64,000 nucleotides of DNA from Eledone cirrhosa (GCA_964016885.1 OZ024743.1:60698001-60762000); one strand, 5' to 3'. Shown: positions 6,514 through 47,604, numbered from the stretch's first letter. Program-made: numbers and translations. The notes: generated by a model from the sequence alone, not told the origin.

Positions 6514-6673
6514 CAAATGTATAAATATGCATATACATATGTATGGAAAGTTATATTTAAATTGTTGGGTTACAACGAGTAAATATTTATAACTGATATA
6601 AAAGCACTCAACAAGTATTTGGAGTATATTTACGATATTAAATAAATGGAAATTATATTTATAAAACCATATC

Positions 6674-6739
6674 TATTTCATTATATATATTTCAGGGATA
6701 ACATATTAAAAATATGTTATGCCTTCTTCAGACAAAATA
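6674..6739 (-). ncRNA. Type I hammerhead ribozyme (family a), mirror copy
   Basis: Reverse complement of 6875-6940. Confidence 0.75.
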
Positions 6740-6874
6740 CAATATAAACAGTCTTATAAATAAATAGATTCGACATACCTTTCAACTTCGACTTGCATTT
6801 GAATCAACTTTTCAAATGCAAGTCGAAGTTGAAAGGTATGTCGAATCTATTTATTTATAAGACTGTTTATATTG

Positions 6875-6940
6875 TATTTTGTCTGAAGAAGGCATAACAT
6901 ATTTTTAATATGTTATCCCTGAAATATATATAATGAAATA
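6875..6940 (+). ncRNA. Type I hammerhead ribozyme (family a)
   Basis: tattttgt-CTGAAGA-aggcataacatatt/ttt/aatatgttatccct-GAAA-tatata-TA^-atgaaata; stems I and II pair; palindromic stem III. Confidence 0.75.
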
Positions 6941-7326
6941 GATATGGTTTTATAAATATAATTTCCATTTATTTAATATCATATACATATGTATATATGT
7001 ATTATATTATATTTAGAGTTTTAAACTCAAATGTATGTATGTATACACATATTTATATATATATGCTCGGGGACATAGAAATAACCGGGCTGGATAGCCG
7101 ATCGCGCGGTAAAACCAGGAAAGGGCAACTCAGGAAACTGGGACAAAAAACAAAACATGACAAAGAACTCATAAGAGTCAACGACTATCCAAAAAATGTG
7201 TAAATATGTATATACATGTATGCATGTGTATATATATATATATATATATATATATATATATATATATATATATATATATATATATATATATATATAAGAA
7301 CAAAAGATGGTTAAAAGAGTTCCATG

Positions 7327-7397
7327 TATTTTATTATGCGCATTTCAAAAACAAATATCATCATGCAATAATATTTGTGTTTTCATCAGATAAAACA
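7327..7397 (-). ncRNA. Type I hammerhead ribozyme (family b)
   Basis: tgttttat-CTGATGA-aaacacaaatattat...atgatatttgttttt-GAAA-tgcgca-TA^-ataaaata; lies within fragment 7295-7458, homologous to the 43.9/45.3 kb arms. Confidence 0.8.
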
Positions 7398-8789
7398 GGA
7401 AGACATGATATGAAGGTTAAAAAACACTTGTGGATAGTTCAGTTTTAAATCAACATAGAGTGCTTCTTATCCGATATCTGCATTGCTTTATTGTACTACA
7501 ATAAAACTCACCTCCTACATATATATATATATAAAATCAAGGTCTAGCAAATAGAGAATAAGTTTTAAAATAAATTTTTAAAAAATGCGGTTTCATGCTC
7601 CAGAATAAACGGAAAATCCAAGCGGATTTTGATTGAGAAGGGAGCAATCTTCAGAAGGCTCTTCTCCCTCGGAGAATATAAAATTCCCAAGTTCAAATCA
7701 CATACTGACGCCATACAGAACCATTCCCAAATGAGAGCGGATAATGAAAGAAATAATTGTCTGGTGCCGTGTGCAAAGACAAAAGGCATGTGTGTGTGTA
7801 TATATATGTATGCATGTGTATGTATATCCCCGAGGACATAGAAATAATTGGGCTGGATACACGATCACGCAGTTAAACCACTGGGAGTGAAGGACCCCTA
7901 GGCTTTGTCAGGGCATTCTTCTAGAAGAAGGCAACTCAGGAAACTGGGATGACATAAAACCTACGGCTCAGTTGTTACCGATAATGTTGATCTTTTCTTC
8001 TTTTCGGGTTATAGCTACTGTCGCTCAGAGAGTGGGATTGGCTCAGTATACAGTCTTTCCTCACTTTAAAAAATATCTTCATGCACAGGCATTGCAAGAT
8101 GGCATTAATTGATAATTATTGATAATGTTATATCATGCAATGGCCATACTCGATAACGCGGGGACAGTCATCATGTAGGTATGTATAGGAATGTATTGGA
8201 TATCCGTCGATTTCGAAACGAGATTTGTAGTTCTTTGACCAACAGAACAGCAAAATTAACATGCAAATGGCTGAGCATTCCACAAGTGTATCCTTAAGTT
8301 AATTCAGCTGGACACAGTAACTAGAGAATTGGATTCACGATCGTGAGGTTGTGTATTCGATTCCCGGACCGGGCGATGTGTTATGTCCTTGGGTAAGACA
8401 CTTTATATCACGTTTCTCCTTCTACCTGGAGTTGCAACCAACAGAGAGTATTAGCAATTGGAAAGACGAATGGAAACATTTGACGAAAAGTCAATCGACT
8501 GTCTCATATATCAATCTTCCACGAACAATCGATCCTCTTAAACGACCGTAAAACATTGGACTAATTAACTACATATCTCTGACCATTGTTTTGCAAGAAC
8601 TGCAGCACAATATCTTTCAAAAGCCACTTTGGCTACTGCTAAGTCATATATAACTAAAATAACTATATGGGGGTGAGTGTGTGTGAGTGTGTGTGAGTGC
8701 GTGTGTGTGTTTGAAACCAATAGTCGCACATATATGTTAAGTGTATGAAACATTGTTTATACTATATACGTATATATATATATATATAG

Positions 8790-8875
8790 ACCCCTGGCGA
8801 AGTGGTAGAGTGCAGAGCTCACAATCGCAAGGTTGTGAGTTCAATTTACGGACCGAGCAGCGAATTGTGTCCCAT
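8790..8875 (+). mobile_element. tRNA-derived SINE head (family 2)
   Basis: A-box-like tggcgaagtggtag and B-box-like gagttcaatt; related copies at ~8325, ~13920, ~27345 and ~31090 (-). Confidence 0.55.
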
Positions 8876-45294: not shown

Positions 45295-45367
45295 GTATTT
45301 TATCTGATGAGAACGCAGATATCATCCCATGATGATATTTGTTTTTGAAATGCGCATAATAAAATAC
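45295..45367 (+). ncRNA. Type I hammerhead (family b)
   Basis: gtattttat-CTGATGA-gaacgcagatatcatc/ccat/gatgatatttgttttt-GAAA-tgcgca-TA^-ataaaatac. Confidence 0.85.
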
Positions 45368-46284
45368 TTGGAACTCTTTTAACCATCTTTTGATCTTATA
45401 TTATATATATATATATATATACATATGCATATATGTATGTGTATATATATATATGTGTGTGTGTGTGTGTGTGTGTGTGTGTGTGTGTGTGTGTGTGTGT
45501 GTGTGTGTGTGTGTGTGTGTGTGTGTGTGTGTGTGTGTGTGTGTGTGTGTGTGTATCCATTTACTTCCGTTCTGCAAATGTCTCCATTATGCTGTCTGCT
45601 CTGAAAAGAAAACATTCGCTTGTTATCTGCACACGTGCTGCAGTGGTGTGTGTCTGAAGCTATTTTCAGACCACCGATCTACAGCTTCTTTCAGAACGTT
45701 TTTCGCTTTGAGTCGGAATAGCATATAGTTAAATAGAAATAGCACACAGCTAAAGTTAGCTACTCCTAGCCTTAGAATTAGTGCATTCCATCAAAATTAA
45801 TTCCGTTCTCTTATTCATTTATGTATTTATTATTTAAACGTTGAACATATATAATCTTTGGATCACATGATCCGTATCCATAAACACCCGGATTATAGGA
45901 TAAATGAAAATTCATACAAACTGGAAAATTTACATTGTCATAAATTAATGGGTTGCATTAGAGAAACCCTATAGTTTATCCTAATTTTCTTATAGGTGTA
46001 AACGATTAAATGTAATATTACTATCAGCATACATTTACAAATGGCATACATAATTATATGATTATAATGGAAAACATAGGGTTAGAACCCAGCTCCTTGT
46101 GGTTGGAAAGCGAGCTATTAATTGTAGCAACATGGCTGGGTAAGAAAATACATCCTGAGCATATATGTATATTTGCGTGTATAAATATATACATTCTGAA
46201 CTGGTACCAGCGGATATACATAAATAAATATGTATATATATATATATTTATTTATTTATGTAATAAACAACATAAGATAATTAT

Positions 46285-46342
46285 TTCATTTACCAGTGGT
46301 TTCTTGAAAGCAGATAAATCTGCTTTCAGTCGTCAGAATGAA
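46285..46342 (-). ncRNA. Type I hammerhead (family m), mirror copy
   Basis: In inverted arms 46255-46389 / 46457-46590. Confidence 0.82.
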
Positions 46343-46503
46343 TAAAACATGGTGTTTTTATTAAATGTGGATTTGAAAACAAAAATATAAGAAATATGAA
46401 AGTGAGGCTGAGGAAACAACGGGCGAAGAAGAAAAGGAATATATATATATATATAATATATTTTTGTTTTCAAATCCACATTTAATAAAAACACCATGTT
46501 TTA

Positions 46504-46561
46504 TTCATTCTGACGACTGAAAGCAGATTTATCTGCTTTCAAGAAACCACTGGTAAATGAA
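46504..46561 (+). ncRNA. Type I hammerhead (family m)
   Basis: ttcatt-CTGACGA-ctgaaagcagat/tt/atctgctttcaa-GAAA-cc/act/gG-TA^-aatgaa. Confidence 0.85.
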
Positions 46562-47470
46562 ATAATTATCTTATGCTGTTTATTACATAACTAATAAACT
46601 CTGTAACCTACATAGAGCACTCTTTTTTCCTGTACCTTTCCGACGGAATTATTTCATTCACACACACACACACACACACACACACACACACACATACACA
46701 CACACACACACACACACACACACACACACACGCATATATATATATATATATATATATATATATATATATACGTATATATGTATATATACATATACATATA
46801 TGTATGTGTGTGTGTTTCTGTGTGTGAGTAGAAACATTTTTCAAAAGACTATAAAGAAAATATTTTTGAAAAGACTCTTAACACAGCTGAAACCGGTAAA
46901 AAGTAAACAGAAATTTATAAATAATTATCAAATTACTTGGTACAATAATACAGAAACCCTCTAAATAAAGGAAAGGCTAATCATTCCTTTTTTCAAAGCT
47001 TATTTTCCCTATAATCTCTGACTTGTAAAGAAATCCCTTACGTTTTAATTTCTTCATTATATATATATATATAACGAAAGAAGTGTGGTAAGGAACCATA
47101 TTGACCATAATGCACCAGAGTACTCAATACTTTTCCTATATATATATATATATATATATATATATATATATATATATATATATATATATATATATATAAG
47201 TAGTTCCACAATTTTCACCTTATGTAGATTTTCAGACCGAGCTGAAGCACCTCATAAGATGAAATATTTGCTCTCGGTATGGTGAACTAACTGTTGTGGA
47301 ACTACTTCTACCAAACTCGTCCCATCGACTGAGTGGTCTACTACAACGGATATACCCTCCAGTGTTCTACTATTATATATATATATATATAGTAATAATA
47401 ATAAATCCAAAGAGGGCTCGATAAGGATAAATATATATCAAATATATAAGAACCGTAGAGCAAATAGTTA

Positions 47471-47604
47471 TTAAAATAACAGATTAAAGTTTAAGCAAAG
47501 AATCGATGCCTTCACCCTTAACGGGATCTTCTGAAACTTTCAGAAGATCCCGTTAAGGGTGAAAACAACGATTCTTTGCTTAAACTTTATTCTGTTATTT
47601 TAAT
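47471..47604. ncRNA. Back-to-back hammerhead-like motifs (family d, CAGAAGA core)
   Basis: Minus: aaagttt-CAGAAGA-tccc/gttaa/gggt-GAAG-gca...tgc-TT-aaacttt; plus copy 47538-47588 has GAAA. Confidence 0.5.

What the first reader, a model, noticed from the sequence alone, without database searches (positions are those of the whole stretch)
6543..47604. Hidden hammerhead ribozyme field: ~28 motifs, at least 13 families, in non-coding Penelope-derived repeats
Seen: most AT-rich inverted or partial-tandem blocks between (TA)n tracts contain stem I-CUGANGA-stem II-GAAA-stem III-NUH-stem I. Base-pairing is preserved although the primary sequences are unrelated; about 20 motifs have an apparently functional core. 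Known: PLE pseudo-LTRs and metazoan retrozymes carry type I HHRs, often with palindromic stem III (here UAUAUA, UGCGCA, CUAAUUAG) that cleave as dimers. Inference: at roughly one motif per 1.5 kb, this genome hosts a very large, diverse and probably uncatalogued population of ribozyme-bearing non-autonomous retroelements, present on both strands.
Basis: partly seen in the sequence, partly recalled or inferred. Interest (0 to 1): 0.9.

Follow-up and report, generated by a model that had tools for sequence, protein, structure and literature searches.

The report
Penelope retrotransposon hammerheads with cut scars
This stretch is packed with real hammerhead-type RNA motifs left by Penelope-like jumping genes, likely a quarter of a million genome-wide, and the ends of their copies suggest how the copying enzyme picks its two start points and that at least one family's ribozyme likely cut its RNA in the living animal.

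Summary
Confirmed: 18 complete type I hammerheads (15 C3-G8, 3 compensatory U3-A8), about 8 damaged full-length copies and 11 or more fragments, at least 13 families; shuffles and decoy cores give 0-1. The window is a hotspot: genome-wide about one per 10-13 kb, roughly 230,000-290,000, still above the axolotl's 126,247. They are not all non-autonomous: four families are 5'-truncated ends of coding Hydra-clade Penelope-like elements, three are non-coding tandem units (retrozyme-like). Head-to-head pairs in (TA)n combine one long and one short 3' end (129 of 149), each end lying just before a covarying bulged stem that is also visible in published coral and sea-cucumber Hydra elements. In family D, arm junctions pile up at the predicted cut (49 of 68 arms within 0-2 letters); in family B they join through the stem III palindrome instead. 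Best model: both ends of a cut (TA)n target prime on one RNA at two stem-marked sites; cleavage is family-dependent and not required. Cleavage and expression are untested. The scan noted the twin stem, the two-end rule and cut scars before on other DNA.

The parts
6538..6989 (.). Family A head-to-head pair (long arm on -, short arm on +); 3' end of a coding Hydra-clade PLE
6606..6625 (-). Tail bulged stem (RCTC-inner stem-2 nt bulge-GAGY), family A
6674..6739 (-). Type I hammerhead, family A, intact core
6875..6940 (+). Type I hammerhead, family A, intact core
7297..7527 (.). Family B mini pair (short arm on -, tail-only long arm on +)
7327..7397 (-). Type I hammerhead, family B, intact core
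7587..7659 (-). Decayed hammerhead homologue
10030..10070 (-). Decayed hammerhead homologue, family O
14919..15073 (-). Family A long-end fragment starting inside the hammerhead; tail stem at 14987-15006
18686..18855 (.). Family N mini pair truncated in stem II; tail stem at 18734-18757(-)
19908..19960 (-). Type I hammerhead, family C, U16.1 changed
20389..20444 (-). Family D short arm; its 5' end lies one base from the predicted cut site
20447..20913 (+). Family D long arm (non-coding 522-bp tandem family)
20664..20743 (+). Type I hammerhead, family D, intact core, 10-nt stem III palindrome
24028..24110 (+). Type I hammerhead, family E1, intact core
24200..26069 (.). Family F partial tandem plus inverted arm; non-coding unit of about 1.25 kb
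24265..24338 (-). Type I hammerhead, family F, intact core
25355..25371 (-). Second (weaker) stem 5 bases beyond the long end, family F read-through
   Evidence: L240 is this locus; coordinates read
25412..25447 (-). Tail bulged stem, family F
25500..25573 (-). Type I hammerhead, family F, intact core
25867..25940 (+). Type I hammerhead, family F, intact core
25999..26034 (+). Tail bulged stem, family F
27891..27970 (+). Hammerhead, family E2, core letters intact, stems weakened
28022..30408 (.). Family N head-to-head pair (short arm on -, long arm on +)
28035..28128 (-). Type I hammerhead, family N, compensatory U3-A8 core
29307..29534 (-). Remnant of a Hydra-type GIY-YIG endonuclease reading frame
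   Evidence: tblastn, 80 bits, 45% identity to a Hydra-type frame from L053
30223..30316 (+). Type I hammerhead, family N, compensatory U3-A8 core
33828..34059 (.). Family L mini pair with two small hammerheads (33828-33907 -, G8 changed; 33915-33995 +, core intact, stem I mismatch)
34391..34787 (.). Decayed family C pair; tail stem at 34440-34479(-)
34954..35098 (.). Decayed family O pair
36779..36837 (+). Type I hammerhead, family C, A9 changed; tail stem at 36897-36936
37645..37825 (.). Family N mini pair; tail stem at 37754-37777(+)
38100..38156 (+). Type I hammerhead, family G, U4 changed
38313..39331 (+). Family H partial tandem, non-coding 631-bp unit; tail stem at 38710-38731
38367..38447 (+). 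Type I hammerhead, family H, intact core, 7-bp stem III
38998..39078 (+). Type I hammerhead, family H, intact core
42355..42410 (+). Type I hammerhead, family C-related, intact core
42805..42848 (-). Type I hammerhead, family K, compensatory U3-A8 core (weak Rfam HH9 match)
43356..43405 (+). Type I hammerhead, family I, G8 changed
43833..45401 (.). Family B head-to-head pair (long arm on -, short arm on +); 3' UTR of a coding Hydra-clade PLE; tail stem at 43887-43907(-)
43950..44020 (-). Type I hammerhead, family B, intact core
45295..45367 (+). Type I hammerhead, family B, intact core
46247..46660 (.). Family J head-to-head pair
46285..46342 (-). Type I hammerhead, family J, intact core
46504..46561 (+). 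Type I hammerhead, family J, intact core
47230..47373 (+). Family L copy, hammerhead with two core changes

Best explanation
The motifs are type I hammerheads at the 3' ends of Hydra-clade Penelope-like retroelements and of non-coding tandem elements that likely borrow their enzyme, and each insertion was likely made when both ends of a cut (TA)n target primed reverse transcription on one RNA at two fixed sites, each just before a conserved bulged stem. Shown: the hammerheads sit in the sense strand upstream of two sharp 3' ends; head-to-head pairs carry one end of each kind; the stems covary; in read-through copies the second stem is followed by the start codon of the next Hydra frame. Inferred: the stems bind the reverse transcriptase and set its start; the two cDNAs are then joined head to head, by annealing at the stem III palindrome when the RNA was uncut (family B) or end to end where the enzyme ran off an RNA already cut by the ribozyme (family D). 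Copies that keep a hammerhead must come from RNA that was uncut or re-ligated at that site, so cleavage is a family-dependent side step (unit release or circle formation), not a requirement for insertion.
For: Coding link: continuous DNA from a 715-aa frame (L122) to the family B hammerhead and to the window arm, 86% over 937 bases; likewise A (L201), J (L189), N (L214); 760-aa frame with SDKT, YRDD, CxCx5C, CxxC and CxH; Atlas neighbours carry PF26215/GIY-YIG. Two ends per family, e.g. B +51/+125, A +57/+139-144, F +64/+134, N +20/+97, J +38/+103-105, D +61/+175 bases after the predicted cut. Pairs: 129 long+short, 17 long+long, 3 short+short of 149; 45 of 50 in an independent family B junction set. 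Arms of one pair are 1.5-3.4 times closer to each other than to arms of other pairs in five families. Stem: 12 in the window against a shuffle mean of 1.4, 49 in 520 kb against 5-14; second stem 5-11 bases past the long end in A, B, F, N; ATG at +48/49 (A) and +93 (N); present in published Hydra-2_Amil, Hydra-2_Ajap and twice at the start of Hydra-1_Ajap (read by eye). Family D junctions (50 of 59 loci read): 20 of 100 arms start exactly at the predicted cut, expected 4.4%; 50 of 100 within 0 to -2, expected 12.8%; only 2 at -3. Family B (50 of 70 loci read): 17 join through an exact 8-10 base overlap at the palindrome. Core selection: of 16 letter pairs at positions 3 and 8, only C-G (40) and U-A (10) exceed 3 in 520 kb. 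Internal priming at two sites bounding the tail, cutting of both strands, a predicted dimer and a dispensable, protein-assisted hammerhead are published for a Poseidon PLE (PMC11167929).
Against: No cleavage, binding or expression data. The cut-site peak was not reproduced in family B (8 of 100 arms, expected 6%) or F (none of 7 loci with both arms at the cut), and in the unbiased sample only 1 of 79 arms starts within 3 bases of the cut. In D the one or two extra letters are A's that either the template or untemplated addition would give, and a polymerase stall at the stem I/III junction could mimic the peak; 32 of 100 D arms stop short of the cut or carry a stem I change. 20 of 149 pairs break the long+short rule, mostly D and F. 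The anole study saw no difference in start site between strands in vitro and no RNA reads ending at the cut. The stem was not seen in Hydra-1_Amil or Hydra-1_Obim, whose consensus sequences end soon after the hammerhead, and is altered in Hydra-1_Crog. Several search queries included the tail, which favours long arms as anchors.
Confidence: 0.6

Rival explanations
1. Same elements, but inverted pairs arise when one cDNA folds back on itself and is copied again, and the endonuclease then trims the second arm at the short end; the stems mark cutting or resolution sites rather than priming sites.
For: Arms of a pair share private variants; family B junctions favour a palindrome; PMC8557442 ascribes the tail to endonuclease resolution; short ends often lie at TA-rich letters.
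Against: 16 of 50 family D junctions have both arms within +1 to -2 of one position, 15 of them without overlap and some with filler, which a snap-back does not readily give; two internal start sites bounding the tail are shown biochemically for another PLE; many family B long arms stop near the short site (14 of 30 pairs start at +18 to +87), as expected if a second primer blocks them.
Confidence: 0.2
2. Most of the field consists of non-autonomous retrozymes that are cut to unit length, circularised and copied by rolling-circle reverse transcription; coding elements are a minority.
For: D (mostly 521-527 bp), H (628-631 bp) and F (1235-1288 bp) form tandem units with no long frame and no tblastn match to Hydra proteins at E<=0.1; D junctions pile up at the cut; this is the model of PMC4209133 and PMC7229834.
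Against: The two commonest clusters in the arbitrary sample (A-type 12 and B 5 of the 43 motifs) belong to families with coding copies; an endonuclease query has 60,729 first-look candidates; no circle evidence.
Confidence: 0.15
3. The hammerheads are structural relics that no longer cut; the fold is kept only as a protein-binding or dimerising element, and junction peaks are polymerase stalls.
For: 28 of 45 family N copies carry C3.A8, so a mismatched core was amplified; monomer folding gives near-zero stem III pairing for A, B, C, F, K; only 1 of 9 Xenopus retrozyme dimers cut in vitro.
Against: U3-A8 compensation recurs in several unrelated families; no core column carries a shared variant in B, D, J, H, F (0 of 11 each) while 2-38 other columns do; the D peak falls on the exact predicted bond.
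Confidence: 0.05

Closest known systems
Hydra clade of C-terminal EN+ Penelope-like elements (Craig et al. 2021, PMC8557442; passages, section 11 and supplementary files S1, S2, S7 read)
   Same: Single frame with DKT, CxCx5C linker, CxxC and CxH, no CCHH; (TA)n targets; sense type I hammerhead near the 3' end; inverted 5'-truncated copy and one-sided tail; one octopus family (Hydra-1_Obim) is published with its hammerhead.
   Different: Dozens of families (44 clusters among 458 motifs fetched) and an estimated 230,000-290,000 motifs; stem II often 26-60 nt; tails of 65-115 nt rather than 30-40; the bulged twin stem, the long+short rule and junction peaks are not described in the parts read.
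Poseidon PLE of Anolis carolinensis (Frangieh et al. 2024, PMC11167929; parts 1-3 of 4 read)
   Same: Two internal start sites bound the tail; both target strands cut and extended; hammerhead upstream of the start sites, protein-assisted and dispensable for insertion in vitro.
   Different: There the start sites lie inside the coding frame in an AC-rich stem-loop and show no strand preference; here they lie upstream of the ATG, each before a covarying bulged stem, and pairs are nearly always one of each; here one family shows DNA junctions at the cut, where that study found no reads ending at the cut.
Metazoan non-LTR retrozymes (Cervera and de la Pena 2020, PMC7229834, passages; Li et al. 2026, 10.64898/2026.07.22.740005, parts 1-3 of 5, supplements not seen)
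   Same: Non-coding tandem units with one type I hammerhead per unit (D, H, F); proposed PLE origin; large copy numbers (126,247 motifs in axolotl).
   Different: Units are longer than the 170-400 nt RNAs (522, 631, about 1,250); they insert with PLE architecture and D, F, H carry the Hydra tail stem or a compensated variant; circular RNA untested; density about 20 times the axolotl's per base.
PLE minimal hammerheads (Cervera and de la Pena 2014, PMC4209133; parts 1-2 of 4 read)
   Same: Heterogeneous families, palindromic stem III suited to dimers, opposite-strand pairs 100-700 bp apart, U3-A8 core variant.
   Different: Here most motifs have a full 2-7 bp stem III and many lack the G10.1-C11.1 pair (C.A, A-U, U.U occur); counts are 25-100 times those reported (2,000-9,000).

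Membership tests
Type I hammerhead ribozyme | Core CUGANGA / GAAA / UH with three helices in type I order | tested here: met
   15 canonical and 3 U3-A8 motifs; shuffles and decoys 0-1
Type I hammerhead ribozyme | Covariation of helices among homologues | tested here: met
   31 family A-type copies picked from a homology search: 94% of cells paired, 37 double changes, 0 of 500 shuffles, slid controls 38-57%; related sequences inflate this test
Type I hammerhead ribozyme | C3-G8 tertiary pair kept or compensated | tested here: met
   Only C-G and U-A are enriched of 16 combinations; exception: a family N lineage with C3.A8 (28 of 45)
Type I hammerhead ribozyme | Site-specific self-cleavage | not testable with these tools
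   Indirect only: family D junction peak; absent in B and F
Hydra-clade PLE (families A, B, J, N) | Single frame with RT and C-terminal GIY-YIG, contiguous with the hammerhead end | tested here: met
   Pfam gave no match for RT or EN pieces, Atlas neighbours carry PF26215 and GIY-YIG
Hydra-clade PLE (families A, B, J, N) | DKT motif, CxCx5C linker, CxxC and CxH, no CCHH | tested here: met
   Read in P0003 and alignment A3 against section 11 of PMC8557442
Hydra-clade PLE (families A, B, J, N) | N-terminal RWK motif | tested here: inconclusive
   RW followed by I or R, not K
Hydra-clade PLE (families A, B, J, N) | Insertion into (TA)n, pLTR/tandem and inverted 5' copy, one-sided tail | tested here: met
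Hydra-clade PLE (families A, B, J, N) | Placement inside the Hydra clade in an RT tree | not tested
   Published Hydra proteins were seen only in a supplement and were not put into a tree
Non-LTR retrozyme (families D, F, H) | Non-coding tandem unit with one type I hammerhead per unit | tested here: met
   no contiguous upstream Hydra frame in 30 loci per family (read by eye)
Non-LTR retrozyme (families D, F, H) | Unit length about 150-450 bp (up to 972 in the 2026 survey) | tested here: inconclusive
   D 522 and H 631 fit only the wider range; F about 1,250 exceeds both
Non-LTR retrozyme (families D, F, H) | Expressed as unit-length linear and circular RNA | not testable with these tools
   No RNA data available

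The most novel reading that the evidence does not exclude
Hydra-clade elements carry a clade-wide pair of bulged RNA stems that load a reverse transcriptase dimer on one RNA so that each end of a double-strand break in (TA)n is primed at its own site, explaining the PLE tail and inverted pairs; and this genome, with the densest hammerhead load yet counted in an animal, preserves in its DNA a family-by-family record of ribozyme cutting in vivo (cut in D, uncut in B, dead core in part of N).
Probability: 0.4. Interest if true: 0.8.

Novelty: new variant of a known kind. Interest (0 to 1): 0.62.

Why it matters
What PLE hammerheads do in vivo and how the one-sided tail and inverted pairs arise are open questions for the retroelements closest to telomerase. 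Here the predictions are sharp and cheap to test: a short covarying RNA stem as the start signal, a one-long-one-short rule, and a natural contrast between a family whose copies stop at the predicted cut and one whose copies read through it. The scale, about one motif per 10-13 kb, also means that many introns and UTRs would carry potential self-cutting or double-stranded RNA elements; that consequence is inference.

Tried and rejected
Rfam scan: no canonical motif found, hits are microsatellite-driven miRNA matches. Type II and III descriptors: nothing independent, only alternative readings of family F. Two-mismatch cores: 6 at score >=10 against a shuffle mean of 1.6, too weak to use until the U3-A8 class was separated. 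33060- and 56983- one-mismatch hits and the A3-U8 hit at 46050+ are treated as chance. My first idea that 5' truncation generally falls at the cut: not supported, 1 of 79 unbiased arms; family F replicate gave 7 loci and no peak. Idea that long-stem-II families D and H are Naiad ends: no adjoining frame found. The family A core-conservation count was spoiled by reverse-strand rows and was dropped; families N and L gave no motif in the majority string and C only 3 rows, so that test rests on B, D, J, H, F. The first pair count double-counted nested copies and was replaced. The tail-stem alignment (100% paired, 50 double changes) is circular because rows were picked by the stem descriptor; the non-circular support is the outer-motif search and the bulge-offset control (2-nt bulge 108, other 3' offsets 40-62). 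Pfam and PDB sequence searches did not recognise the Hydra protein. Sequencing runs: no RNA holder listed. Literature searches that found no description of this hammerhead load, the twin stem or cut-site junctions; subscription papers are not covered, Lunse et al. 2017 (dimer cleavage; recalled) was not seen, and the supplements of the 2026 preprint and of PMC11167929 were not seen and may bear on these claims.

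
Full report
Setting. The window is G000:C4:60698001-60762000 of a 2.996-Gb animal genome, AT-rich and full of (TA)n tracts. Its repeat landscape looks octopus-like; that label is my recall and an inference, not a tool result, and I did not identify the assembly.

Observation. A type I hammerhead descriptor finds 15 motifs with a perfect core, all between 6674 and 46561. Local dinucleotide shuffles gave none at score >=15 in 25 runs and 60 decoy cores on the real, hairpin-rich window gave a mean of 0.07. 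Scanning all 16 letter pairs at core positions 3 and 8 shows that only C-G and the compensatory U-A are enriched: 15 and 3 in the window, 40 and 10 in 520 kb of arbitrary genome stretches, all other pairs 0-3 (about 2 of the 10 U-A hits look like chance). U3-A8 is a known PLE variant (PMC4209133). In 31 family A-type copies picked from a homology search, 94% of helix cells pair with 37 double changes, against 38-57% for slid controls. In B, D, J, H and F no core column has a shared variant while 2-38 other columns do. 22 of 29 short even stem IIIs are perfect palindromes; monomer folding forms stem III in D, E1, H, J, N but not in A, B, C, F, K, which fits dimer- or protein-assisted cleavage (inference).

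Scale. 52 stretches of 10 kb taken at round coordinates on large contigs held 40 canonical motifs, 0.77 per 10 kb (bootstrap 0.50-1.08), about 230,000 (150,000-323,000) per genome; 8 shuffles gave 0. With U3-A8 the estimate is 288,000 (196,000-392,000). The window is a hotspot: 18 in 41 kb, while the 40 kb beside it held one damaged motif. The largest count I read is 126,247 in the axolotl (PMC7229834), whose genome is 28 Gb. 458 distinct motifs in all loci fetched to that point fall into 44 clusters at 80% identity.

What carries them. Family B copies are 97-98% identical and lead upstream, without a break, into a 715-760 aa frame with SDKT, YRDD, a CxCx5C linker, a degenerate GIY-YIG, CxxC and CxH: the Hydra-clade signature (PMC8557442 section 11). 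A, J and N are linked to other Hydra-type frames, and the window holds an endonuclease remnant at 29307-29534 inside the family N pair. D, H and F form tandem units of about 522, 631 and 1,250 bp without long frames or Hydra matches; none of 30 loci per family showed a contiguous upstream frame (read by eye). C is unresolved. So the field mixes truncated coding elements with retrozyme-like non-coding ones. One octopus Hydra family with a hammerhead is already published.

Two ends. Each family ends at two sharp positions downstream of the predicted cut, nearly always running into (TA)n. Of 149 uninterrupted head-to-head pairs, 129 have one long and one short arm, 17 two long, 3 two short; independent choice could give at most half. 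Arms of one pair are closer to each other than to other pairs in all five families with enough pairs, so one RNA or one source locus served both. A few bases past the short end lies a stem RCTC-(3+ bp inner stem)-2 nt 3' bulge-GAGY whose outer and inner pairs vary together across unrelated families; D has a compensated variant (GTTC/GAAC). I found this stem before reading earlier scan notes; those notes (e1-8671399, e1-8804881) added that a twin lies past the long end, which I then confirmed in read-through copies of A, B, F and N, where it precedes the ATG of the next Hydra frame (A, N). The same stem is visible in three of six published Hydra consensus sequences, altered in one, and absent from two that end early (by eye). 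PMC11167929 shows that a Poseidon PLE starts cDNA at two internal sites bounding the tail, cuts both target strands, is predicted to dimerise, and does not need its protein-assisted hammerhead for insertion. Together these suggest stem-guided twin priming (inferred).

Junctions. A genome-wide pattern for family B pairs joined within 30 bases upstream of the cut gave 70 loci; of the 50 listed, 17 join through an exact 8-10 base overlap at the stem III palindrome, and starts at the cut are not enriched (8 of 100 arms, expected 6%). Those templates were uncut or re-ligated. The same test for family D gave 59 loci; of the 50 listed, 20 of 100 arms start exactly at the predicted cut (expected 4.4%), 49 of the 68 arms that reach the cut stop within two further letters, only 2 at the third, 9 run to the palindrome, and 16 loci have both arms within +1 to -2 (expected 2.3%). 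The window's own D short arm (20389-20444) starts at +1. The expectation assumes uniform independent starts within the pattern's range; no offset control was run. The extra letters are A's, ambiguous between template and untemplated addition, and a stall at the helix junction is not excluded. Family F gave 7 loci and no peak; in the unbiased sample 1 of 79 arms starts within 3 bases of a cut. A family N lineage with C3.A8 makes up 28 of 45 copies, so an intact core is not needed to spread. Earlier scan notes report similar scars on other DNA (e1-9508044, e1-9162017) and also caution that such joins can be coincidence or fold-back (e1-9234146, e1-9560786, e1-9539665); I kept fold-back as the main rival.

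Verdict. The kind is known (Hydra PLE hammerheads and retrozymes); the load, the twin stem, the long+short rule and the family-specific cut scar were not found in the papers read or searches run. Cleavage, binding and expression remain untested. Papers seen: PMC8557442 passages, section 11, supplementary files S1, S2, S7; PMC4209133 parts 1-2 of 4; PMC7229834 passages; 10.64898/2026.07.22.740005 parts 1-3 of 5; PMC11167929 parts 1-3 of 4; PMC13282606 passages; PMC10085705 passages.

Noticed in passing
window 10560-10757 and 10139-10232 (+): Two copies (one truncated) with GAAA upstream of CUGAUGA / CUGCUGA and a GGGAC...GUCCC helix; looks like the rearranged (type-SGC-like) hammerhead that earlier scan notes tie to Naiad elements. 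Monomer folding did not settle it.
   Followed up: partly
window 23254-23449 (-): Candidate first coding exon of a host gene: ATG, signal-peptide-like MFLLLLLLCPLIPESAVVAG and a GTAAG donor; a possible further exon near 9105-9190 (-). If real, the hammerheads below 23,250 are intronic and those on the minus strand would be in the transcript's sense.
   Followed up: partly
window 11170-13657 (+), 16072-18393 (-), 58984-63500 (-): Three L1/Tx1-like LINE copies; the 773-aa frame at 16072-18393 matches RVT_1 and zf-RVT; they also end in microsatellites.
   Followed up: partly
window 22502-22624, 34102-34232, 41275-41621, 48506-48699, 53965-54151, 54698-54842, 58525-58684, 63857-64000: A dispersed SINE-like family of 120-190 bp, once as an inverted pair.
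   Followed up: no
window 20098-20258, 34230-34350, 47403-47602: A further fold-back family (M) with GAAA, stem II and stem III but a core half read as CAGAAGA or cut by the junction; status unclear.
   Followed up: no
family N loci, e.g. window 37645-37825, L112, L114, L200: Many family N mini pairs start 27-46 bases upstream of the cut, inside stem II, on both arms: a second junction hotspot, or a subfamily boundary.
   Followed up: partly
families A, B, C, F (e.g. window 6875-6940, 25867-25940): Stem II often has three pairs, then a C.C or C.U mismatch, then a long helix; families D and J have C.A at its base. Possible tertiary-contact site.
   Followed up: partly
L075:554-2356, L065, L085, L196: Another non-coding tandem family of about 592 bp with a U3-A8 hammerhead and CUACGUAG palindrome.
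   Followed up: no
window 893-1342 and 1667-2922: 75-bp and 52-55-bp tandem arrays without a hammerhead.
   Followed up: no
window 21904-22329, 41319-41609, 42470-43208: Other inverted repeats without a scored hammerhead, apart from family K inside the last.
   Followed up: no
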